From a virus (Duplodnaviria > Caudoviricetes), in the IMG/VR virus record IMGVR_UViG_3300030376_008307, positions 1-64,000 of that record: a DNA stretch of 64,000 nucleotides, one strand, 5' to 3'. Of the stretch, positions 10,791-52,598 are shown one piece after another. The notes below the pieces were generated by a model. It saw only the letters and a program-made list of their open reading frames with translations, had not been told where the DNA came from and ran no database searches. Every line of letters starts with the position of its first letter. Position 1 is the stretch's first letter. The position numbers were made by a program, and so were the translations under genes.

Positions 10791-11279
10791 ATGGCAGTAT
10801 TAGATCCCAACGAAATATTTTTCACAGCTTTTGAACCAAAAGTAGCTAATAGATTTATATTGTATGTTGATGGTATACCATCGTATATAATTAAAGGAGT
10901 TAGTGGAATGGGGTTCGCGCAGGATGAAATAGTATTAAATCATATAAACACTTATAGAAAAGTAAAAGGTAAATTAAGATGGAATGATTTAACAATGGAA
11001 TTATTTGATCCTATTACTCCTTCAGGAGCTCAAGCAGTAATGGAATGGACAAGATTACACCACGAATCAGTTACTGGTAGAGATGGTTATTCTGATTTTT
11101 ATAAAAAAGATTTAACTATTGATGTATTAGGTCCTGTAGGTGATGTAGTATCAGAGTGGATTATTAAAGGAGCATTTATTAAAGATGCTGCATTTGGTGA
11201 TATGAATTGGGATGATGACACTACTGTAATGAATATTTCACTAACAATAGGAATGGATTACTGCGTATTAAATTTCTAA
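10791..11279 (+). CDS. Tail tube protein (gp19-like)
   Basis: Follows the sheath gene; KGKLRWNDLT, YKKDLT and EWIIKGAF motifs. Confidence 0.88.
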   Translation: MAVLDPNEIFFTAFEPKVANRFILYVDGIPSYIIKGVSGMGFAQDEIVLNHINTYRKVKGKLRWNDLTMELFDPITPSGAQAVMEWTRLHHESVTGRDGYSDFYKKDLTIDVLGPVGDVVSEWIIKGAFIKDAAFGDMNWDDDTTVMNISLTIGMDYCVLNF

Positions 11280-11378: not shown

Positions 11379-12128
11379 ATGGAAGAATATAAGTTCCCAA
11401 CAGAAATGGTAGATTTACCTTCAAAAGGATTAATTTACCCTAAATCTAACCCTCTATCTTCAGGACAAGTTGAAATGAAATACATGACAGCTAAAGAAGA
11501 AGATATATTAACAAATCAAAACTATATCAAAGATGGTTCAGTTCTTGATAGATTATTAAAAGCTTTAATTGTTAGTAAAGATGTTAGTTATGATGATTTA
11601 GTTGTAGGTGATAAAAATGCTATTATGGTAGCAGCTAGAATTTTAGGTTATGGAGCTGATTATACCTTTACATATAATAATGAAGAAATAACTGTAGATT
11701 TACAAGATTTAAAAACAATATCTTTAGATGAAGATAAAATGTTAGAAAAACATGTAAATAAATTTGAATATACTTTACCTCATTCTGAAACATTAATTCA
11801 ATTTAAATTACTATCTACTAAAGATGATAATGCAGTAAAAGCAGAGGTAAATGGTTTAAGAAAAATAGACAAAAAAGCTAGCCCTGAGTTATCAACACGT
11901 TTAAAACATATGATATTATCAGTAAATGGTAATACAGATAAATCAGAAATAAGAAAATTTGTTGATACCTATATGTTAGCAAGAGATTCAAGAGCACTTA
12001 GATCACACATTCAAACATTTCAACCAGACATTGATTTGAAATTTAACCATGAGAGTAGCGACGGCATTGAAAGGGAAGTCTCCCTTCCAATGACTGTCAA
12101 CTTTTTTTGGCCTGACGCCAATCTATAG
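11379..12128 (+). CDS. Baseplate hub assembly/tail assembly chaperone (gp26-like)
   Basis: LPSKGLIY and MTAKEEDIL motifs; ends NFFWP; lies between tube and tape measure genes. Confidence 0.75.
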   Translation: MEEYKFPTEMVDLPSKGLIYPKSNPLSSGQVEMKYMTAKEEDILTNQNYIKDGSVLDRLLKALIVSKDVSYDDLVVGDKNAIMVAARILGYGADYTFTYNNEEITVDLQDLKTISLDEDKMLEKHVNKFEYTLPHSETLIQFKLLSTKDDNAVKAEVNGLRKIDKKASPELSTRLKHMILSVNGNTDKSEIRKFVDTYMLARDSRALRSHIQTFQPDIDLKFNHESSDGIEREVSLPMTVNFFWPDANL

Positions 12129-30646: not shown

Positions 30647-30690
30647 TATACTAGTAGTTATTTTCCATATATTTATAGTAAAACATTTAT

Positions 30691-30909
30691 ATGGAAAAGT
30701 TAACACAATTTTGGAATTGGCTTTTAAGTAAGACAACTCTAGACGAAAAAGCTGTTGAAGTTTATGTTGAAGTAAAAGATAGAGCTGGAGAAATGGCTGA
30801 TGAATTTAAAGATGTAAAAAAAGCTTTAAAAAATGTAGCTGCTCAATCTAAAGATGTTATTGATGCTTCTAAAGGTAAAAAACGAAGAGGTAGACCTAAA
30901 AAGAAATAA
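30691..30909 (+). CDS. Small hypothetical protein with basic C-terminus
   Basis: 72 aa ending KKRRGRPKKK. Confidence 0.55.
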   Translation: MEKLTQFWNWLLSKTTLDEKAVEVYVEVKDRAGEMADEFKDVKKALKNVAAQSKDVIDASKGKKRRGRPKKK

Positions 30910-31991
30910 TGATGAAAAAAATATTACTATTACTTTTTATACTTTTTTCTTTAAATTCTTATTCTCAAAATGAGTTAAAGAAAATATTTAAATTTTCAAC
31001 ATTTTATGCTGCAGCAAATGGAGGAACTTCTCTCTCTAATGTTGATGTTTATTCAGTTACAGATGGTTTAACAACAACTACAATAGAAACACCATTTGAT
31101 TATTCACTAGCATTAGGAGTTAGAAAAATAGCTAGAATGGGTTATGAACCTAAAGAAGCATTTAAAAATGGTCAAGAAAACTCATTTTCAGATGCTGCTA
31201 CTATTGGTAAAGTTAAAGGATTTGAATTTTTATTTGAAGTTGATTATAAAAGACAAGAAGGGATTGAATATTTAGACCAACATCATTTTTTAAGATATGT
31301 TAATGATAGTTGGATTGCTAAAGTAGAATATTTACAAGATGGGTTTGCTGATATTGAGTATTTTGAAGCATCACAAAGATATAGATACCAAGTAGAAGCA
31401 TTAGAAAGTCTACCAGGTGAATTAGGAAAAGGAAAATTATCAATTAATGTAGGAGCTGTACAACGTTTATCAGAACCTTATGGTTATGATCCATTAGAGG
31501 AATGGAAGTTATCAAATGGTAATTTACATTATACTTATTTAGCATTAGAAGAGGGTTATAATGCTAATTTTATTTCACATGATATTATTCAATATTTAGA
31601 TCCACAAGGAAATATAGTAGCAGAAAATAATGAAGTTTGGGAAGCAGTTGTCATCCCACAGGTATTAGCTGACTACACTGAGAAAAAAAGAGACCAACAA
31701 GATAATACTATACAACATTCATTAGTTGTTGGGTTTGATTATTATTACTACACAAAATCATTTTGGTTACACTCATGGGGTAACTTAATGCCATGGCATT
31801 ATGATGATGGTAGTGAATTTTCATATCATAATTTTAATGATGGTGAACAATGGTACGATTATTCAGGTGGTTTAATATTTGGATACAAATACAATAAAAA
31901 TTTAGGAGTATTTATAGAAGGAAAATATAATAAATACTGGAATAGAGAATGGCATGACTTTTCTGTAGGAATGAATTATATAATATTTTAA
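30909..31991 (+). CDS. Putative outer-membrane beta-barrel protein
   Basis: Bacteroidota-style signal peptide MKKILLLLFILFSLNSYSQ; aromatic alternating strands; C-terminal FSVGMNYIIF beta-signal. Confidence 0.65.
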   Translation: MMKKILLLLFILFSLNSYSQNELKKIFKFSTFYAAANGGTSLSNVDVYSVTDGLTTTTIETPFDYSLALGVRKIARMGYEPKEAFKNGQENSFSDAATIGKVKGFEFLFEVDYKRQEGIEYLDQHHFLRYVNDSWIAKVEYLQDGFADIEYFEASQRYRYQVEALESLPGELGKGKLSINVGAVQRLSEPYGYDPLEEWKLSNGNLHYTYLALEEGYNANFISHDIIQYLDPQGNIVAENNEVWEAVVIPQVLADYTEKKRDQQDNTIQHSLVVGFDYYYYTKSFWLHSWGNLMPWHYDDGSEFSYHNFNDGEQWYDYSGGLIFGYKYNKNLGVFIEGKYNKYWNREWHDFSVGMNYIIF

Positions 31992-31994
31992 AAA

Positions 31995-32276
31995 ATGGCA
32001 AAAGAATTAAGTGAAAACACAAGTTTTAATGTTAGTATACAAACTTTAATAGGTATAGGATTTGCCATTACTACAGTAGTAGGTATGTGGTTTGCATTAC
32101 AAGCAGATATTGAAGAAGCAAAAGAATTACCTGTTCCACCTCCCCCAGCTATTACTAGAATGGAATTTGATATGAAAGATCAATTAGTAAGACAAACCAT
32201 TATGGATACCCAAAAAGATGTAGAAGAAATTAAGGAAACTTTAGAAAAAATAGAAGATAAATTATACGGTAGATAA
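31995..32276 (+). CDS. Single-pass membrane protein with coiled coil
   Basis: Hydrophobic LIGIGFAITTVVGMWFAL segment, then Pro-rich linker and heptad tail. Confidence 0.6.
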   Translation: MAKELSENTSFNVSIQTLIGIGFAITTVVGMWFALQADIEEAKELPVPPPPAITRMEFDMKDQLVRQTIMDTQKDVEEIKETLEKIEDKLYGR

Positions 32277-32280
32277 TTAT

Positions 32281-32625
32281 ATGAAATTTTTTAATAAAAA
32301 TATTTGCTTAACTTCACCCACAACTATAATGATTATAGTTGCTTTACTATTTAGTACAATAGTACTTGCTAATGTGTTGTCAAAAGAAGAAGTTGAATTA
32401 GTAGAAATCAAAAGTAGTGATGAAGAGGAAATGTGGGTTCCTACTAAAGAAGATATAGCATATCAAGATAGTATGTATATTATAATTAGAAATACTCAAA
32501 ATGATATAACAGATATTAAAAAAGATATAGTATATATTTTAGAGAGGTTAGATTACGAAGATGGTTCCTGGGATAGTATTAGATATGTAAAAGGTGGGAA
32601 AATCGATAAACGTAGAAACCAATAA
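32281..32625 (+). CDS. Membrane-anchored/secreted hypothetical protein
   Basis: N-terminal hydrophobic segment. Confidence 0.5.
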   Translation: MKFFNKNICLTSPTTIMIIVALLFSTIVLANVLSKEEVELVEIKSSDEEEMWVPTKEDIAYQDSMYIIIRNTQNDITDIKKDIVYILERLDYEDGSWDSIRYVKGGKIDKRRNQ

Positions 32626-32626
32626 T

Positions 32627-33007
32627 ATGAAAAAAGATTACACATCAGTAAAAATATTTGGAGGATATTTATTAATATTACTCCTTATGTTAATTTCAAA
32701 TACAGCAAATGGTCAATCTCCTTGTGAAGATGAGGGTTTATGTGTAGTACAATTTAATGCTGGGTTTAATGAAGCAAATAAAGTACTTTGGGTTGATAAA
32801 TTAAATGATTGTTCTAAAAAATTTATTGACATTCAAACTGATACTGAAGCAGCAAGTAAATATAAAATAGTAGTTGTTCCTACAATTGTAATATATAGTG
32901 ATGGAGAAGAAGTTGGGAGATTTCAGGCAAATATTATGATGCAAATGGAAGCAACTAAAAAAGATGTACAAGAGAAGATTGATGAAATTATAATGTCAGA
33001 TTTTTAA
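32627..33007 (+). CDS. Secreted thioredoxin-fold protein lacking CxxC
   Basis: Signal peptide; VVQFNAGFN, YKIVVVPTIVIYSDGEEVGRF thioredoxin-fold motifs. Confidence 0.65.
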   Translation: MKKDYTSVKIFGGYLLILLLMLISNTANGQSPCEDEGLCVVQFNAGFNEANKVLWVDKLNDCSKKFIDIQTDTEAASKYKIVVVPTIVIYSDGEEVGRFQANIMMQMEATKKDVQEKIDEIIMSDF

Positions 33008-33017
33008 AAAATAAACA

Positions 33018-36000
33018 ATGAAAAAATTACAGTTATTATTATTAACACTTTTAATACCTTTTTTAGGTTACACACAAAATTCCTGGATTCACATACAATT
33101 AATGACAGACGATTATCCGTCTGAAACAAGTTGGAATATTACACCTCCTGGTGGTTCACCTATTATTATAGAAAATGATAGTAATATGCTACCTAATACA
33201 ATGTATGATACTATTGTTCAACTTGGTGGTACTATTATTGCAAGCATATATGATGAATTTGGTGATGGTTTAAGCTCAGCTCCATTTGGTGGAACTGATG
33301 GTTGGTTTATGATTAGCAATTCATGTCAAGATACTTTAATGTATGTTGCTGGTAATTTTGGAGATAGTTTAGTACAAACATTAACTGTTGCCCCTTGTGC
33401 TCCTCCTACATTTGGTTGTTTAGATCCTAATGGATTAAACTATGACTCAACAGCATACTTTCCTGGTCCTTGTACATACCCAACTTGTGGTGGGCTTTTA
33501 TCTGATACTGTACAACAAACTTGTCTACCAACAGGACAAACATTAGTTCAATTCTTTTGGCAAAACGATATATCAAACGGTAATTGCAATCCAGTTAGAT
33601 TTTGGTATTGGAATGAAAATGGTGTTGGTCCTTTTCAATATGGACTTGGTCCTAATCAACAAGATTTTGCAGTATATGCTGGTAATGGTCAAATGCCACC
33701 TAATTGGAGTGTAGAACATTATGGTATGGTAGAATTTGCAGATAGTACTTTTTCAGATACTATGGCATATACTCCTACTTCATGTATAGCAGGATGTACA
33801 GATCCAACACAACCTACATTTAATCCATGGGCTACATTTGACGATGGTTCATGTGCAGGTACAACTTGTGATACTAATACAACTTATCAAATTACAATGG
33901 AAATTACATTTGATAATTGGCCAAGTGAAACTGGTTGGACTATGAATAGTGGTCCTTATGGTATATTGCAAGAAGAACTTCCTGGTGCATATAATTTTAA
34001 CGATATAGGTCAAACTTACACTTACACTTTTTGTGTAGACCAAGCAGCAGGTTTTGAATTAATTGTAACAGACACTTATGGTGATGGAATGGCAGGGACT
34101 ACTTCTGGTGGTTCATTAGATGGTATGATTGTTATTTATGATTGTTTAGGAGACACTATTTGGTATATGGATAATCCTGGATTTGGTAGTACATTATATT
34201 CAGGACAACAATTTGGTGTACCATGTTTATCAGTTCCTCCTGTATATGGTTGTATGGATGATGATTATCAAGAATATGATCCATTAGCTACGGTTGATGA
34301 CAGTTCATGTGTAAATTTACACGTTTATGGTTGTACTGATCCTTCTGCTTTTAATTATAATCCTAATGCAACTATTAATGATATAGTGCCTGATTGTCAA
34401 TATCAATTATGGATTGGAGACGCTGGAGGTGATGGTTGGGGTAATTCATATTTAGGTGTTTATCAAAATGGAATTAATTTTGGAACATTTACAATGGGTC
34501 CTGGTAGTTATCAAGATTCATTTTTATTAGTATTAGACGCTGGTATACCAGTTAATGTATATTATTTTGAAGTTGGTGGACCACAACAACCACCAGAAGA
34601 AGTACAATTTCAAACATGGCATAATTCATTTAAATTAACAAATGCAGATGGTGTTGTATTAATGCATGAAGGTACTAATCCTTTTGCTAACAATGGTCAA
34701 GGTGCATTACAATCATTCCAATCACCATTTTGGACAACATATACAGCTATACCTTTCTGTGGTGATTATTGTATTCCTACAGTATTAGGTTGTATGGATT
34801 CACTAGCATTTAATTATGATTCTACAGCTAATGTAGATGATGGTTCATGTATACCTTACATTTTAGGTTGTATGAATGTATTTGCAATAAACTTTAACCC
34901 ATTAGCTAACGTTGATGATGGTTCTTGTATACCATTTATTAATGGGTGTACTGATCCAACAGCAGATAATTACAACCCACTTGCTAACACTGATGATGGT
35001 TCATGTTATTACATTGGTTGTATGGATGTAGCTGCTTGTAATTTTGATTCAACAGCAACAGTAAATAATGGATGTCAATATCCAGCACAATATTATGATT
35101 GTAATAATGTATGTTTATTAGATTCAGATGGTGATGGTATTTGTGATGAATTAGAAATACCTGGTTGTACTAATCCTATTGCTTTAAATTTTGATATTAC
35201 AGCAACAGATGATGATGGTTCTTGTATTTTACCAATTTATGGATGTACAGATCCATTAGCATTTAACTATAATCCATTAGCAAACACAGACAATGGATCT
35301 TGCATACCTGTTGTATTTGGTTGTACTGACCTTACAGCTTTAAATTATGATCCTCTAGCAAATACAGATAATGGGTCTTGCATACCTTATATTTATGGTT
35401 GTACAGATTCAACTGCATTTAATTATAATCCTCTAGCAAACACTGATAATGGATCCTGTATTTCTTTAATTTATGGTTGTACTGATTCTACTGCTTTAAA
35501 TTATAATCCATTAGCAAATACAAATGATAATTCTTGTATAGCAGTAATTTTAGGATGTACTGATTCTACAGCAATTAATTATAATTCATTGGCAAATACT
35601 GATGATGGTTCATGTATAGCTACGGTATTAGGTTGTACAGATCCAACAGCATTTAATTATAACCCACTTGCTAATGTAAATGATGGTTCATGTGTACCAT
35701 ACGTTTATGGTTGTACTGATCCTACTCAATTTAACTATGATCCTTTAGCAAATAGTGATGATGGTAGTTGTATTCCTTATATTTACGGTTGTATGGATGC
35801 AACAGCATTTAACTATAACCCATTAGCAAATACTGACAATGGATCTTGCATACCAGTAATATTTGGTTGTACGGATTCTATAGCATTAAATTATGATCCT
35901 TTAGCAAATACAGACAATGGAACTTGTATTTTACCTATAACAGGATGTACAGATGTTTCAGCATATAATTATGATCCTTTAGCTAATACCTCAGATTCAA

Positions 36001-36407
36001 CAGCATGTTTATATGATGCTGGTTGTTATGGAGGACCTGGAATACCATATTGGTTAAATGATGGATGTTATGCTTGGGTAATTAGTGTAGATGATTATTG
36101 TTGTACTAATGATTGGGATCCTACATGCCAATCAATGTATGATTATTGTCAATTAGGTTGGCCAACTAATATTCCTGATGTTTCGGCTTTAGGTATAGTT
36201 GTTTATCCTAACCCAACAAGAGGATTAATTCATATAGAAACTAGATTAGAAATAGAAGTTGAACTTTACGATATGACTGGTAAATTATTAATTAAATCTA
36301 ATAATGCTTCTAATAGAATTGATATAAATGATTTCCCTTCAGGTATTTATAATATGACAATAATATATGAAGATAAAAGATATAGTAAAAGAATAATTAA
36401 AAATTAA
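33018..36407 (+). CDS. Large Cys-rich repeat surface protein with T9SS (Por) type-A C-terminal sorting domain
   Basis: Signal peptide; about 19 GCTDxxAxNYxxxAxxDDGSC repeats; C-terminal VYPNP...LYDMTGK...PSGIY...KRIIK. Confidence 0.85.
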   Translation: MKKLQLLLLTLLIPFLGYTQNSWIHIQLMTDDYPSETSWNITPPGGSPIIIENDSNMLPNTMYDTIVQLGGTIIASIYDEFGDGLSSAPFGGTDGWFMISNSCQDTLMYVAGNFGDSLVQTLTVAPCAPPTFGCLDPNGLNYDSTAYFPGPCTYPTCGGLLSDTVQQTCLPTGQTLVQFFWQNDISNGNCNPVRFWYWNENGVGPFQYGLGPNQQDFAVYAGNGQMPPNWSVEHYGMVEFADSTFSDTMAYTPTSCIAGCTDPTQPTFNPWATFDDGSCAGTTCDTNTTYQITMEITFDNWPSETGWTMNSGPYGILQEELPGAYNFNDIGQTYTYTFCVDQAAGFELIVTDTYGDGMAGTTSGGSLDGMIVIYDCLGDTIWYMDNPGFGSTLYSGQQFGVPCLSVPPVYGCMDDDYQEYDPLATVDDSSCVNLHVYGCTDPSAFNYNPNATINDIVPDCQYQLWIGDAGGDGWGNSYLGVYQNGINFGTFTMGPGSYQDSFLLVLDAGIPVNVYYFEVGGPQQPPEEVQFQTWHNSFKLTNADGVVLMHEGTNPFANNGQGALQSFQSPFWTTYTAIPFCGDYCIPTVLGCMDSLAFNYDSTANVDDGSCIPYILGCMNVFAINFNPLANVDDGSCIPFINGCTDPTADNYNPLANTDDGSCYYIGCMDVAACNFDSTATVNNGCQYPAQYYDCNNVCLLDSDGDGICDELEIPGCTNPIALNFDITATDDDGSCILPIYGCTDPLAFNYNPLANTDNGSCIPVVFGCTDLTALNYDPLANTDNGSCIPYIYGCTDSTAFNYNPLANTDNGSCISLIYGCTDSTALNYNPLANTNDNSCIAVILGCTDSTAINYNSLANTDDGSCIATVLGCTDPTAFNYNPLANVNDGSCVPYVYGCTDPTQFNYDPLANSDDGSCIPYIYGCMDATAFNYNPLANTDNGSCIPVIFGCTDSIALNYDPLANTDNGTCILPITGCTDVSAYNYDPLANTSDSTACLYDAGCYGGPGIPYWLNDGCYAWVISVDDYCCTNDWDPTCQSMYDYCQLGWPTNIPDVSALGIVVYPNPTRGLIHIETRLEIEVELYDMTGKLLIKSNNASNRIDINDFPSGIYNMTIIYEDKRYSKRIIKN
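34786..36006 (+). repeat. Tandem ~78-nt (26-aa) Cys-rich repeats
   Basis: Repeated ggttgtac.gat...aattataatcc...gcaaa.ac.ga..atgg.tc.tg units. Confidence 0.9.
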
Positions 36408-36411
36408 AACT

Positions 36412-36636
36412 ATGAGTTGGAAAGAAATTTTTAAAGATGAAAATGAATATAATGAAAAATCTATAGTTGGTTTCATTGCATTCCTAATGATGGTAGTTGT
36501 AATGGTAGCTGATTTAATAACAGGATGGATTGGAAAAGACTTAGTAATAAATGAATATATTTATGATTCATTTGTAATAGTAGTATTGGGGTGTTTTGGT
36601 ATTGCTGGTTTAGAAAAATTCGCAAATAGAAAATAA
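36412..36636 (+). CDS. Small two-TM membrane protein (holin candidate)
   Basis: 74 aa with two hydrophobic helices and basic C-terminus. Confidence 0.5.
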   Translation: MSWKEIFKDENEYNEKSIVGFIAFLMMVVVMVADLITGWIGKDLVINEYIYDSFVIVVLGCFGIAGLEKFANRK

Positions 36637-36637
36637 T

Positions 36638-37480
36638 ATGAAAGAATTAAAAAACTTTAGAGCATTTCTTAATGAAGCTAATCCAGATGGAACTGTTTCT
36701 CAAGGTGAAGAAAAACAAGCACAAGCTGTAATTGATCAATTTACTAGACAATTAATGGTTGAAATGAATAAAGCAGTAAAAGCTTTAGAACAAGTAGGAG
36801 GATCATTTAGATCACCAGGGTATAAATTAGATTTATATAAAGCTGTAGACCAAATAGTTAATCAATTTAAACCTTCATATTTAGCTGAAGGTCATAGTTT
36901 AAGTGACTCCGACATAGATTATTTAGAAGATTTTATTAATAGATCATCAAATGAAGATAATGTAATACTAAGACGTATTATTAAAAATATTATCAAAACT
37001 AATATTAAACCTGTAAAAGAACAAAAAACAATTACAGAATTTGTTGGTAAAGAATTAGAAGATAGAAACGAACCTTTATATGATAAATTAGTACCTGGAC
37101 AAGGAGATGCTGAAACAGTAGAAGGTGAAATGTTAAGAGCTATTAATAGAATTGTTTATCGTTTTTATAATGATGGAGATAAATATTTTCAAGGATATGG
37201 TACTGAAACAGCAGGTCCTGCTCATTCATTTTTAGTTAATGCAAACCACCCTTTAAAATCAGCAATGATTAAACTCTTTGATGAACCATCTGGAGATAAT
37301 TCTTATGAAAGAATGCTTAAAGATGTATTAGATATGATTTTAGATTATATTGAATCAAGACAAGGTAAATATACTAAAAATACATTAGGTGGTATGTTTG
37401 ATTATGAACCTGAATTTGAAGAAGAGGAAGAGGATGATGATGATTACACATATGATTATGATGATGAAGACGATTATTAA
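36638..37480 (+). CDS. Hypothetical protein, probable internal head protein
   Basis: N-terminal FRAFLNE, further LxE/IxE motifs, acidic tail. Confidence 0.45.
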   Translation: MKELKNFRAFLNEANPDGTVSQGEEKQAQAVIDQFTRQLMVEMNKAVKALEQVGGSFRSPGYKLDLYKAVDQIVNQFKPSYLAEGHSLSDSDIDYLEDFINRSSNEDNVILRRIIKNIIKTNIKPVKEQKTITEFVGKELEDRNEPLYDKLVPGQGDAETVEGEMLRAINRIVYRFYNDGDKYFQGYGTETAGPAHSFLVNANHPLKSAMIKLFDEPSGDNSYERMLKDVLDMILDYIESRQGKYTKNTLGGMFDYEPEFEEEEEDDDDYTYDYDDEDDY

Positions 37481-37491
37481 TATTTAAAATT

Positions 37492-38100
37492 ATGGACTGT
37501 TACACAAGAGAACAAATAGAAAATGCTATGGCTTTAAAAGGCTATAGATATTTTAAGTCAGGAGATCTTAATCTTAATATTATAGGAGTTAGAAATTCAG
37601 AAACAAAGGGTAGAGTTACAAATGCTTTTGATGATTGTATTACTTTATCTTATAAATTAGATGGCGAATGGAAATTCCATTGTTTTAAATGTACAACAGA
37701 TCCAGGAACCCATTGGGTTGAAAATTTACTTAATCCTAATGGAGTAGCAATATTAAAACCAAATCAATATAGAGGTTCTCACAAAATAGGTTTACATCAA
37801 GGTAAATATGAAGCATTAAGACAACAAAAACCATTAGAAGTTTATCGTGATGATAACCAGGATGGGATTTATGATTGTTTAGAAGAAGATGTTGAAAAGG
37901 GTATTTTTGGAATTAATATTCATAGAGCAACAGCTAAAACTGGGGGTAAATCAACAAGAATAGATAAATGGTCAGCTGGTTGTCAAGTAATAGCATCAAA
38001 TGATGATTTTGCTGTGTTTATGAAAATATGTAATCAAGCAAAAGATCTTTGGGGTAATTCATTTACTTATACTCTTATTGAGTCAAAAGATATTATTTAA
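37492..38100 (+). CDS. Putative endolysin with YkuD/L,D-transpeptidase-like active site
   Basis: GINIHRA...WSAGCQV (H...SxGC) and TTDPG motifs. Confidence 0.6.
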   Translation: MDCYTREQIENAMALKGYRYFKSGDLNLNIIGVRNSETKGRVTNAFDDCITLSYKLDGEWKFHCFKCTTDPGTHWVENLLNPNGVAILKPNQYRGSHKIGLHQGKYEALRQQKPLEVYRDDNQDGIYDCLEEDVEKGIFGINIHRATAKTGGKSTRIDKWSAGCQVIASNDDFAVFMKICNQAKDLWGNSFTYTLIESKDII

Positions 38101-38114
38101 TTAAAATTAAAGTT

Positions 38115-39302
38115 ATGTGGAAAAACATCCAAGTGAGATTATTTCCTCTGTTAATTGCATTTTCTGCATTATCAGTTTCATTATCAGCAGCATTTTATTC
38201 AATTAGTGGTTTAAGTAAATTATTTGCTGGAGCTGCATTTGCCGTTATAGTAATGGCGGCATCATTAGAAATAGCTAAATTGGTTATAGCATCTCTTTTA
38301 TATCAATATAGAAAAACATTACCTAAATTATTAAAATATTACTTATCTATTGCCTGTGTAGTGTTAATATTAATTACTTCTATGGGGATTTATGGATTTT
38401 TATCTGCAGCATATCAAGAAACAGCTGCAAAATCAGGAAATATAGATGCACAAATTACTTTGATAGAAACTAAAAGAGATAATGTAAAAGAACAACTAGT
38501 TGTATATAATGAAGAAAAATCAAGTATAAATAATTCTGTAACGAGTTTACGTAATGGTTTAAGTAACAATGTAATACAGTATACAGACACAAGTGGTAAT
38601 ATAGTTACAACAACTTCCTCATCAACTCGTAGAGCTTTAGAAAAACAATTAGATCAAGCTATTGAAAGACAAACAATAGTAAATTCTAAAATTGATGATT
38701 TAAATGATAAAATATTCCAATATGAAACTGAAATAGTTGAAGTAAAAACTAGTGATGCTGTTTCTAGTGAGTTAGGACCTCTAAAATACCTATCAGGATT
38801 AACTGGAACTCCTATGGATAAAATTATTAATTGGTTACTTTTAACTATAATTTTTGTATTTGATCCTTTAGCAATTGCTTTAGTAGTAGCAGCTAATTTT
38901 GCTTTTGATCAAATTAAATCACCTAAATTTATCCCACAACCTATAAGAATAAGACAACCTAAAAAGGTAAAAATGTCAGTTCCTGAAGGTATGGAATTTG
39001 GTAAATCTTACCCAATACCCTCTTTTGATTTAAAACAACGAGTAAAAGAAAGTCAAGAAAAATTAAAAATAACACCTGAAGAAGAAAAAAGAATGGATGT
39101 TATAGGTCAAAATGGTAATGAAGGATTACATTATGATGAATATGATTTAAATAAAGATGGAATAATTGATGAAGAAGAATCAAAATATATGGAAGCTGTC
39201 GAAAATTTAAAAAAAGAAAAAGAAAATAAAGGATTTGATTCTACTTGGTATTTTAAAAAACTTAAAGAAATACCTAAACCAACACCAAAAAATAATAAGT
39301 GA
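38115..39302 (+). CDS. Multi-pass membrane protein with periplasmic coiled coil
   Basis: Three N-terminal TM segments, long heptad region, further TM segment IIFVFDPLAIALV. Confidence 0.6.
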   Translation: MWKNIQVRLFPLLIAFSALSVSLSAAFYSISGLSKLFAGAAFAVIVMAASLEIAKLVIASLLYQYRKTLPKLLKYYLSIACVVLILITSMGIYGFLSAAYQETAAKSGNIDAQITLIETKRDNVKEQLVVYNEEKSSINNSVTSLRNGLSNNVIQYTDTSGNIVTTTSSSTRRALEKQLDQAIERQTIVNSKIDDLNDKIFQYETEIVEVKTSDAVSSELGPLKYLSGLTGTPMDKIINWLLLTIIFVFDPLAIALVVAANFAFDQIKSPKFIPQPIRIRQPKKVKMSVPEGMEFGKSYPIPSFDLKQRVKESQEKLKITPEEEKRMDVIGQNGNEGLHYDEYDLNKDGIIDEEESKYMEAVENLKKEKENKGFDSTWYFKKLKEIPKPTPKNNK

Positions 39303-52079: not shown

Positions 52080-52598
52080 ATGAAAAGAATACTATTAATA
52101 CTATTAGTTTCGCTTGGACTACAAACACAAGCACAACAATCAAATCCAGCATATTTTTGCTGTGATTCAATAACATATTGGACAGATCAAAGTCAAGGAT
52201 TCAATATAGGTCTTGACACAACAAGTATGATACATAATCCTGATTCAATAGATGTTATTTGGTCTATATGTAATTCAACAGCTTGCTATCCAGGTACAGG
52301 TATGTATGCTTATTTTGGGCAAATTATGTCTACTGATACAATTAAAGTATGTTATGATGTATGGCTTTATGAAGCAAATACAATGGAAGTATGTACTCAT
52401 TGTGATTCATTAATATTTGATCAAAACTTATATTCATGGGTTATGTTTAGTATGCAAGGTAATCCATTATCTATAAATGAACTAATGTTTAATAGAGTTA
52501 ATGATAATAAGATTTATGACATGTTAGGAAGAGAATTAACTGAAATTCCAGTAGGTCAAATGTATATTAGAAATCAAAAACTATACATAAATAAATAA
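52080..52598 (+). CDS. Secreted Cys-containing protein with short T9SS-like C-terminal tail
   Basis: Signal peptide ending AQ; C-terminal IYDMLGREL...GQMYIRNQKLYINK. Confidence 0.6.
   Translation: MKRILLILLVSLGLQTQAQQSNPAYFCCDSITYWTDQSQGFNIGLDTTSMIHNPDSIDVIWSICNSTACYPGTGMYAYFGQIMSTDTIKVCYDVWLYEANTMEVCTHCDSLIFDQNLYSWVMFSMQGNPLSINELMFNRVNDNKIYDMLGRELTEIPVGQMYIRNQKLYINK

What the first reader, a model, noticed from the sequence alone, without database searches (positions are those of the whole stretch)
30669..36636. Phage-encoded host-surface module: T9SS cargo with Cys repeats, beta-barrel OMP and secreted thioredoxin-fold protein
Seen: behind one late-type motif (30669) lies a tightly packed run of envelope-targeted genes. 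These are a signal-peptide beta-barrel with terminal Phe, two membrane-anchored proteins, a secreted thioredoxin fold without CxxC, and an 1129-aa protein with signal peptide, about 19 two-Cys repeats and a type-A T9SS sorting tail. Known: T9SS C-terminal domains route proteins through the Bacteroidota PorK-N/SprA machinery to the cell surface. Inference: the phage hijacks the host T9SS to display its own stalked adhesin or shield on the infected cell, possibly with the barrel as anchor and the thioredoxin fold as folding helper. Possible roles are superinfection exclusion, anti-grazing or particle attachment. I regard this as the best candidate for an undescribed system here.
Basis: partly seen in the sequence, partly recalled or inferred. 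Interest (0 to 1): 0.88.

Follow-up and report, generated by a model that had tools for sequence, protein, structure and literature searches.

The report
Phage T9SS cargo beside envelope trio
An uncultured marine phage of Bacteroidota encodes a large cysteine-repeat protein tagged for its host's type IX secretion system. Next to it lies a conserved set of outer-membrane barrel, inner-membrane helix protein and dead thioredoxin, which other phages carry without any such cargo, next to their lysis genes.

Summary
The window is the first 64 kb of a 95.6-kb IMG/VR myophage record. Genes from 30691 to 36636 are tightly packed behind a motif shared with the tail genes.

- **Barrel:** the 360-aa protein folds as a 12-14-stranded outer-membrane barrel.
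- **Thioredoxin:** the fold is real, but the CGPC site is deleted across the family.
- **Cargo:** the 1129-aa protein has a signal peptide, beta-sandwich domains, exactly 19 Cys repeats and a type A T9SS sorting domain (TIGR04183 51.7 bits, PF18962 46.2 bits).

In about 75 related loci the cargo stays next to the barrel, 93-aa membrane protein and thioredoxin, in three gene orders. The same trio also occurs with no cargo in a second lineage of 130 contigs. Four of those genomes are complete and have no T9SS domain. There the trio sits just upstream of a holin or an M15 endolysin. The barrel and thioredoxin are therefore not dedicated helpers of the cargo.

Best reading: a host-like T9SS surface protein joined, in this lineage, to an older lysis-linked envelope trio whose role is untested. 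This scan has noted the same module before on other DNA. Phage T9SS cargo has been published. I found no paper on the trio.

The parts
30669..30682 (+). Promoter-like motif ATATTTATAGTAAA shared with the tail genes; likely head of the transcription unit
   Evidence: 7 exact + strand copies of ATAT[GT]TATA[AG]TAAA against 0.06 expected; 5 lie 22-39 nt before start codons, including the sheath and tape measure
30691..30909 (+). 72-aa protein with no signal peptide or TM and a basic tail (KKRRGRPKKK); not an envelope protein and not part of the conserved core
   Evidence: found at this position only in near relatives and elsewhere in others
30909..31991 (+). 360-aa outer-membrane beta-barrel (trio member 1): signal peptide cleaved before Gln, C-terminal Phe
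   Evidence: AF2 pLDDT 79.8. Best fold matches are generic 12-14-strand barrels (Tsx Z 11.0, LpxR, OmpG, FapF); PorV Z 8.4. 323 representative clusters, no Pfam family
31995..32276 (+). 93-aa bitopic inner-membrane protein (trio member 2): one TM, Pro-rich hinge, charged helical tail
   Evidence: TM window. 65 non-identical homologues with conserved MWFxLQADIxEAKELP. Always paired with the thioredoxin gene
32281..32625 (+). 114-aa bitopic membrane protein, a possible divergent paralogue of the 93-aa protein; lineage-restricted
   Evidence: One TM. Weak similarity to the 93-aa protein (E 0.022 over 22 aa). Present in 8 loci
32627..33007 (+). 126-aa exported thioredoxin-fold protein with the CGPC active site deleted (trio member 3)
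   Evidence: Profile against PDB thioredoxins E 2e-9, with a 5-residue gap at CGPC. P85-T86 invariant; no Cys conserved across the whole family. 20 of 28 members hit PF00085
33018..36407 (+). 1129-aa T9SS cargo: signal peptide, beta-sandwich domains, 19 Cys repeats, Cys-rich domain, type A CTD
33075..34763 (+). Cargo N-terminal half (residues 20-582): a string of beta-sandwich domains, one FN3-like, separated by single Cys repeats; no enzyme domain found
   Evidence: AF2 pLDDT 76.9. FN3 matches Z 9.4, rmsd 2.3 over 87 residues for model residues 136-237. Generic Ig/FN3 strings by Foldseek
34785..35999 (+). Main run of 26-aa two-Cys repeats (15 of the 19 copies; consensus GCTDxxAxNYxPLANTDxGSC)
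   Evidence: Own HMM finds 19 copies. DNA period 78. The same repeats occur in bacterial T9SS proteins
36018..36182 (+). Cys-rich domain just before the CTD; the best-conserved part of the cargo family
   Evidence: 43-100% identity across loci where the N-terminal domains vary
36201..36404 (+). Type A T9SS C-terminal sorting domain
   Evidence: TIGR04183 51.7 bits (cut-off 23), PF18962 46.2 bits (cut-off 27), full-length match at the extreme C-terminus. It is the only PF18962 hit in the 95.6-kb record
36412..36636 (+). 74-aa membrane protein with two hydrophobic stretches that often follows the trio, with or without cargo; holin-like by position only
   Evidence: Homologues in 27 cargo-bearing loci and in cargo-less loci, 61-67% identity, once directly upstream of the 93-aa gene

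Best explanation
The region is a late-type envelope cassette of an uncultured marine myophage of Bacteroidota. It is made of two separable parts.

Part A is the 1129-aa protein. It is exported by Sec and cleaved before Gln, as the Bacteroidetes Q-rule predicts. It then folds in the periplasm into beta-sandwich domains on a stalk of 19 disulfide-type repeats. The host's T9SS most probably moves it to the cell surface or the medium through its type A C-terminal domain. It has no recognisable enzyme domain and is built like T9SS substrates of some Bacteroidota. It therefore most likely acts as a surface adhesin or coat.

Part B is an older phage trio: an outer-membrane barrel, a bitopic inner-membrane helical protein, and a periplasmic thioredoxin fold whose CGPC site is deleted. 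A small 74-aa membrane protein often accompanies it. This trio works without any T9SS cargo in other phages, where it lies just upstream of the holin or endolysin. Its most likely role is a lysis-linked envelope complex that reaches from the inner to the outer membrane, in the place where spanins act. It is probably not an anchor or foldase for the cargo.

Shown: the domain identities, the co-occurrence, and the separability of the two parts. Inferred: T9SS-dependent export, the surface role, late timing, and any lysis role. My sub-confidences are: cargo is a T9SS substrate 0.8; trio is independent of cargo 0.9; trio acts in lysis 0.4.
For: - **Cargo:** the CTD scores above both curated cut-offs. 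The signal peptide is followed by a conserved Gln (Q-rule paper PMC5837995).
- **Cargo repeats:** bacterial ORFs in G108, G100 and G088 carry the same repeats and end in PF18962.
- **Thioredoxin fold:** fold and CGPC deletion shown.
- **Barrel:**
- **Linkage in the myophage lineage:** 74 loci carry all four genes on one strand. The gene order changed at least 8 times on the barrel tree while the genes stayed adjacent.
- **Separability:** L092-type loci run 93-aa gene, thioredoxin, barrel, then GTA_holin_3TM (57-60 bits). No cargo was found in 80 loci.
- **Complete cargo-less genomes:** four CheckV-100% genomes have no PF18962 match.
- **L094-type loci:** the trio is followed by Peptidase_M15_3 (57.5 bits) and a holin-like gene.
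- **Holin in cargo-bearing loci:** holin homologues lie 9 nt to 2.6 kb from the module in 9 loci and 6.4 kb away in one; in two more loci only the barrel was mapped.
- **Timing:** the motif at 30669 is shared with tail genes.
Against: - No experiment exists and no cultured phage carries these genes.
- In this window no Pfam-supported holin or endolysin lies next to the module. The 74-aa and 202-aa proteins are lysis-like by position and a partial PHROG match only.
- The periplasmic part of the 93-aa protein is only about 55 residues, which is short for a spanin.
- The outer-membrane partner is a barrel, not a lipoprotein.
- The persistent adjacency of cargo and trio through several rearrangements could still reflect a functional tie.
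- About a third of cargo homologues in related phages have a short tail that does not score as a T9SS domain.
Confidence: 0.5

Rival explanations
1. Integrated display system. The barrel anchors or escorts the T9SS cargo in the outer membrane, as SprF does for SprB. The thioredoxin fold chaperones its 60 cysteines, and the small membrane proteins assist.
For: In the myophage lineage the cargo is next to the trio in every locus where all four genes were found, in three gene orders with at least 8 order changes. Between near-identical phages the two surface-exposed proteins diverge most: cargo 78% and barrel 86% against 95-100% for most neighbours. The barrel has a swapped hairpin at residues 132-175.
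Against: The trio keeps the same lengths and architecture in complete phage genomes that have no T9SS domain. The barrel gives no PorP/SprF match, and PorV is not a preferred fold match. The thioredoxin family has no conserved Cys. No recurrent fusions were found.
Confidence: 0.2
2. The trio is not a lysis device. It is an envelope-remodelling or superinfection-exclusion module, for example one that masks a receptor or alters the outer membrane. It merely shares the late operon with the lysis genes, and the cargo is a second, independent surface modifier.
For: Morons and exclusion genes often sit beside lysis genes (general phage knowledge). Larger relatives carry sugar and sialyltransferase-like genes a few kb away, which suggests surface remodelling. 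A distant barrel homologue lies in a bacterial contig with no phage genes.
Against: Late-type expression with the tail genes fits poorly with exclusion, which is usually early. Tight and repeated holin adjacency is seen in two unrelated phage backbones.
Confidence: 0.2
3. The cargo itself serves lysis or release. For example, it overloads or holds open the host T9SS translocon late in infection, or it coats debris so that progeny do not re-adsorb.
For: The cargo lies within a late-type unit next to lysis-like genes. In L051 a holin-like gene starts 3 nt after the cargo's stop codon.
Against: Pure inference. Cargo-less phages manage with the trio alone. The variable N-terminal domains, including MAM domains, look like binding modules.
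Confidence: 0.07
4. The 1129-aa protein is a virion or fibre component, and the C-terminal domain is only an Ig-like decoration.
For: The Cys repeats match a 'virion structural protein' of Synechococcus phage S-CAM3. Foldseek lists tail-fibre-like FN3 strings.
Against: It has a cleavable Sec signal peptide with a Q-rule Gln. Its position is among replication and lysis-neighbourhood genes, not in the virion block at 1-21 kb. The CTD is full-length and sits at the extreme C-terminus. The S-CAM3 hit covers repeats only.
Confidence: 0.03

Closest known systems
Phage-encoded T9SS type A cargo: 'Cryophage' (Bellas et al. 2020, PMC7468147) and T9SS sorting-domain ORFs on crAss-like contigs (de Jonge et al. 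2019, PMC6949934)
   Same: A phage of a Bacteroidota host encodes proteins that end in a type A T9SS sorting domain. The cargo genes vary between otherwise similar phages (here).
   Different: Those cargoes are enzymes or PA14/BACON proteins in flexible islands. Here the cargo is a non-enzymatic Cys-repeat stalk protein. It belongs to a family with more than 2000 metagenomic homologues and is fixed next to a conserved envelope trio.
Bacterial T9SS type A substrates with the same 26-aa Cys repeats (ORFs in sampled Bacteroidota genomes G108, G100 and G088)
   Same: Repeats are 50-59% identical and are followed by a PF18962 domain in the same open frame.
   Different: Found in only 4 of 300 sampled genomes, not counting the MAG that holds the phage contig. 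I did not look for a neighbouring barrel or thioredoxin gene there, and the N-terminal domains were not compared.
Cognate cargo-barrel pairs of the T9SS (SprB/SprF and other PorP/SprF-family partners; PorV shuttle)
   Same: An outer-membrane barrel gene lies next to a T9SS cargo gene. In two of the three gene orders the barrel directly follows the cargo.
   Different: Those pairs involve type B CTDs and PF11751 barrels. Here the CTD is type A and the barrel has no PF11751 match. PorV scores Z 8.4, below generic barrels. The barrel also exists in phages with no cargo.
Two-component spanins (lambda Rz/Rz1 type)
   Same: An inner-membrane protein with a periplasmic helical tail is paired with an outer-membrane protein. 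The genes lie beside the holin and endolysin.
   Different: The outer-membrane partner is a 360-aa barrel with an SPI signal, not a small lipoprotein. There is a third, thioredoxin-fold component. The periplasmic tail is only about 55 residues. No function has been tested.
Redox-inactive thioredoxin-fold proteins (for example the non-catalytic b domains of protein disulfide isomerase; from my own knowledge)
   Same: The thioredoxin fold is kept, including the cis-Pro loop, while the CxxC is lost. This implies binding rather than catalysis.
   Different: This is a phage-specific, exported, single-domain protein of 115-135 aa. Its partner is unknown.

Membership tests
T9SS type A cargo (TIGR04183 / PF18962) | C-terminal sorting domain matching the family model above the curated cut-off, at the extreme C-terminus | tested here: met
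   TIGR04183 51.7 bits against 23; PF18962 46.2 bits against 27; residues 1062-1129 of 1129
T9SS type A cargo (TIGR04183 / PF18962) | N-terminal Sec signal peptide for export to the periplasm | tested here: met
   MKK, then a hydrophobic core, then ...GYT|QNS with a near-invariant Gln. Assessed by eye and the Q-rule; no SignalP run
T9SS type A cargo (TIGR04183 / PF18962) | Secretion depends on the host T9SS (SprA/PorV/GldKLMN) and the host has one | not testable with these tools
   Host unknown. A Bacteroidota host is inferred from the CTD, the Q-rule and RNR similarity to Flavobacterium and Cellulophaga phages
Thioredoxin (PF00085) | Thioredoxin fold with cis-Pro loop | tested here: met
   Family profile against PDB thioredoxins E 2e-9 over 68 positions; P85-T86 invariant; 20 of 28 members hit PF00085. 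The window's own protein is below the cut-off (19.8 against 23.5 bits)
Thioredoxin (PF00085) | CxxC (WCGPC) redox site | tested here: not met
   A 5-residue gap replaces CGPC plus one residue. The family motif is FNAxWNxAN, and no Cys is conserved across the whole family
Outer-membrane beta-barrel protein | Signal peptide, closed antiparallel barrel, C-terminal aromatic beta-signal | tested here: met
   AF2 pLDDT 79.8, pTM 0.74. Z 9.6-11.0 to 15 solved OM barrels (ranks 1-15). Ends in Phe, and the family consensus ends GxNYxIx
PorP/SprF family (PF11751) | Sequence match to the family model | tested here: not met
   No hit at E<=0.1 in 24 family members and none at E<=1 in the whole record
PorV (T9SS shuttle, FadL-like barrel) | Fold match standing above other barrels | tested here: inconclusive
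   6h3i_F Z 8.4 at rank 23, below Tsx, LpxR, OmpG and FapF
Two-component spanin | i-spanin: N-terminal TM plus a periplasmic coiled coil long enough to reach the outer membrane | tested here: inconclusive
   TM present. The charged tail of about 55 residues was not modelled. Helical character is inferred from sequence only
Two-component spanin | o-spanin: small outer-membrane lipoprotein with a lipobox | tested here: not met
   The outer-membrane partner is a 360-aa barrel with an SPI-type signal and Gln at +1
Two-component spanin | Gene position next to the holin and endolysin | tested here: met
   Met in relatives: holin PF11351 57-60 bits and M15_3 57.5 bits within 0.1-2 kb of the trio. In this window only unverified lysis-like genes are adjacent

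The most novel reading that the evidence does not exclude
The trio of barrel, 93-aa membrane protein and dead thioredoxin is a new three-component envelope-spanning lysis device of Bacteroidota phages. It would be a spanin equivalent that uses an outer-membrane barrel instead of a lipoprotein. In this abundant marine myophage lineage it has become physically or functionally coupled to a T9SS-exported surface protein, so that the phage both remodels and finally breaches the host envelope from one late operon.
Probability: 0.25. Interest if true: 0.8.

Novelty: new variant of a known kind. Interest (0 to 1): 0.62.

Why it matters
- **How common phage T9SS cargo is.** It was reported in 2020 as a 'unique occurrence'. 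Here it belongs to a family with more than 2000 metagenomic homologues in a widespread marine phage lineage. Use of the host's T9SS by phages may therefore be common in the ocean.
- **How Bacteroidota phages breach the outer membrane.** This step is poorly understood. A conserved trio that travels with holins in at least three phage backbones is a concrete, testable candidate for it.
- **Annotation.** Knowing that the two parts are separable prevents the barrel and thioredoxin fold from being annotated as T9SS accessories.

Tried and rejected
- **Barrel family searches.** Pfam, PHROGs and NCBIfam gave nothing for the barrel, the 93-aa, 114-aa and 74-aa proteins. A PDB sequence search with the barrel profile gave nothing. 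tblastn of the barrel and the 93-aa protein against 50,697 phage records found no relatives, so no cultured phage carries them at that sensitivity.
- **T9SS partner barrels.** PorP/SprF and PorV identity for the barrel were rejected or left inconclusive.
- **Search with the divergent barrel alignment.** The search for related loci failed for lack of a conserved stretch. The single-protein query worked.
- **Species genomes.** Only 3 mis-binned MAG contigs carry the barrel, so it is not a host gene at close range.
- **The 202-aa protein as endolysin.** Not verified. It has a partial PHROG match only, no PDB hit, and varied contexts in crAss-like and P2-like phages.
- **Fusion (Rosetta-stone) search for the thioredoxin fold.** Only 4 singletons were found. 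The two I read are chimeric-looking sequences from contigs of about 1 kb.
- **Other divergent barrel clusters.** They sat on contigs too short to read context. ENA loci are not held for whole-record searches.
- **Second T9SS protein at 52080-52598.** No PF18962 or TIGR04183 match.
- **ESM Atlas.** Only unnamed viral clusters were returned.
Full report
**What the sequence is.** The window is the first 64 kb of a single 95,581-bp IMG/VR virus record that CheckV rates 56% complete. All genes are on the + strand and GC is about 30%. It is a contractile-tailed phage. It has a tail sheath (phrog_23, E 6e-71), a tape measure, a head-tail adaptor and a collagen-like fibre with an S74 chaperone. An identical copy lies on a 121.6-kb Tara Oceans contig. 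The finding sits after gp32, a RecA-like gene (weak Pfam hit), an exonuclease, DnaB and both RNR subunits, and before a ligase and UvdE. It is therefore outside the virion block.

**Check of the observation.** Genes from 30691 to 39302 are packed with gaps of -1 to 14 nt.

The motif at 30669 matches ATAT[GT]TATA[AG]TAAA. That pattern has 7 exact + strand copies in the window against 0.06 expected. Five copies lie 22-39 nt before a start codon: the tail sheath, the gene at 10791, the gene at 11379, the tape measure and 30691. The 'late-type' label is therefore reasonable, although the timing is inferred.

The 360-aa protein has a signal peptide and a C-terminal Phe. Its model (pLDDT 79.8) is a 12-14-stranded outer-membrane barrel with an extra-barrel helical insert. 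The best matches are generic barrels: Tsx Z 11.0, then LpxR, OmpG and FapF. PorV scores only Z 8.4.

The 93-aa and 114-aa proteins each have one TM segment. The 74-aa protein has hydrophobic windows in two separate stretches.

The thioredoxin-like gene starts at ATG 32627, giving 126 aa. A profile of 28 family members hits solved thioredoxins at E 2e-9. The alignment shows a 5-residue gap where CGPC should be. The cis-Pro is invariant and no Cys is conserved across the whole family.

The 1129-aa protein has a signal peptide and 60 Cys. Its N-terminal half is a string of beta-sandwich domains, one of them FN3-like at Z 9.4. It has exactly 19 copies of a 26-aa two-Cys repeat, then a conserved Cys-rich domain. 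It ends in a full type A T9SS domain that scores above both curated cut-offs. This is the only such domain in the record.

The barrel, the thioredoxin fold and the cargo all have Gln directly after the predicted signal-peptidase site. This is the Bacteroidetes Q-rule (PMC5837995) and it independently points to a Bacteroidota host.

**Co-occurrence.** The cargo's N-terminal half has more than 2000 metagenomic homologues. Nearly all of the best 120 carry PF18962. The barrel is found on 482 IMG/VR contigs.

Among the loci examined, the barrel, the 93-aa gene, the thioredoxin gene and a cargo homologue of about 600-1400 aa lie together on one strand wherever the contig allows. Three gene orders occur: 37, 19 and 18 loci. 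The order changed at least 8 times on a barrel tree of 60 rows, against 25-30 changes in the shuffles inspected.

The cargo is the variable member. Its N-terminal domains come and go, and some are MAM domains. Repeat number also varies. Between near-identical phages the cargo is 78% identical and the barrel 86%, while most neighbours are 95-100%.

A divergent barrel (28% identity) lies on 45-kb contigs that have a P22-type portal and an SU10 capsid. There the gene order is a 93-aa homologue, then a thioredoxin homologue (hhalign probability 98.6), then the barrel. Three small genes follow, then a GTA_holin_3TM holin at 57-60 bits. There is no cargo.

IMG/VR holds 130 such contigs. In the 80 loci I fetched, the trio is intact wherever the contig allows, and about 60 have the holin 0.2-2 kb downstream. 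None has a CTD, repeat or cargo match. Four of these genomes are CheckV-100% complete, and one has terminal repeats. None has a PF18962 match.

A third type, L094 and 7 IMG/VR loci, has the barrel, the 93-aa gene and the thioredoxin gene (probability 99.4). In L094 these are followed by Peptidase_M15_3 at 57.5 bits and a holin-like gene.

That holin's homologues, at 66-84% identity, occur in 11 cargo-bearing loci. In 9 of them they lie 9 nt to 2.6 kb from the module, and in one case the gene starts 3 nt after the cargo's stop codon. The 74-aa protein also appears in cargo-less loci, once directly upstream of the 93-aa gene.

The trio is therefore an independent unit whose constant companion is the lysis cassette, not the cargo.

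**The cargo's affinities.** The 26-aa repeats occur at 50-59% identity in large proteins of 4 of 300 sampled Bacteroidota genomes. In at least three genomes the same open frame ends in PF18962. The phage protein is thus built like a class of host T9SS substrates.

About a third of the cargo homologues in related phages end in a shorter tail of about 50 aa. This tail keeps a D-x-LGR motif and a final basic strand, but it does not score with either T9SS model. Whether such tails still direct secretion is unknown.

**Mechanism.**
- Shown: the domain identities, the linkage and the separability.
- Inferred for the cargo: Sec export, periplasmic folding, T9SS transport and a surface or secreted binding role.
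- Inferred for the trio: a complex that links the inner membrane, periplasm and outer membrane and acts at or near lysis. The evidence is guilt by association across three phage backbones, plus a promoter-like motif shared with the tail genes.

Several points weaken a strict spanin analogy. The outer-membrane partner is a barrel and not a lipoprotein. The periplasmic tail of the 93-aa protein is short. In this window the neighbouring 74-aa and 202-aa proteins are only putative lysis proteins.

**Literature.** Phage-encoded T9SS cargo was described in 'Cryophage' as a unique occurrence (PMC7468147). T9SS sorting domains were noted on crAss-like contigs (PMC6949934). Q-rule signal peptides have been noted in Porphyromonas phages (PMC10367356). 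One survey states that Bacteroidetes phages use only unimolecular spanins (PMC12596118). I found no paper describing the trio or its link to a T9SS cargo. This scan has itself noted the same module several times on other DNA.

**Verdict.** The cargo is a new member of a known kind. The trio is an uncharacterised, widespread phage envelope set that deserves experiments.

Noticed in passing
window 52080-52598: The 172-aa secreted Cys-containing protein that another first-stage note called a minimal T9SS cargo gives no PF18962 or TIGR04183 match. Its tail (..YDMLGRE..) does resemble the short tails of cargo homologues in related phages.
   Followed up: partly
L038, L039, L045, L046, L058, L063, L066, L071, L072, L077, L079, L080 (cargo homologues): A subset of cargo homologues end in a tail of about 50 aa (..VTDILGRP..LLFYIYxDGTVEKKxIK) instead of the 70-aa CTD. 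The five tested do not score as a T9SS domain. This could be a minimal sorting signal or a loss of T9SS dependence.
   Followed up: partly
L009:4536-8777 and L019:12283-16404: The cargo homologues there start with a MAM domain (PF00629, 60-72 bits) in place of the window's first beta-sandwich domain. This looks like swapping of the distal binding module.
   Followed up: no
window 8971, 10760, 11340, 12433, 14870, 30669, 56913: The motif ATAT[GT]TATA[AG]TAAA has 7 exact + strand copies against 0.06 expected, mostly 22-39 nt before tail genes. It is a candidate late promoter of this phage.
   Followed up: partly
window 31302-31433 (barrel residues 132-175) against L007: Between phages that are otherwise about 97% identical, 42 of the 55 barrel differences fall in one hairpin plus loop. 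This is a local recombination patch in a probably surface-exposed part.
   Followed up: partly
L001:1-6200 and L002:1-3000: Larger relatives (143-170 kb contigs) carry CMP-sugar synthetase-like, sialyltransferase-like (Glyco_transf_29), other glycosyltransferase and epimerase genes a few kb upstream of the module. They may take part in glycan remodelling.
   Followed up: no
window 37492-38100: The 202-aa protein (phrog_3000; partial match to an 'endolysin' PHROG) has 40-51% identical homologues in crAss-like and other Bacteroides phages and in P2-like Pseudoalteromonas phages. All are annotated hypothetical, in varied contexts.
   Followed up: partly
L092:9092-9217 and L094:6249-6383; window 30691-30909: Very basic small ORFs (41-44 aa) lie between the trio and the holin or endolysin in cargo-less phages. 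The window's 72-aa protein also has a strongly basic tail (KKRRGRPKKK). Their role is unknown.
   Followed up: no
L085, L086, L087: The only species-genome hits for the barrel are MAG contigs labelled Parvibaculum, Sphingobacteriales and Rickettsiales. These are most likely phage contigs binned into the wrong genomes.
   Followed up: no
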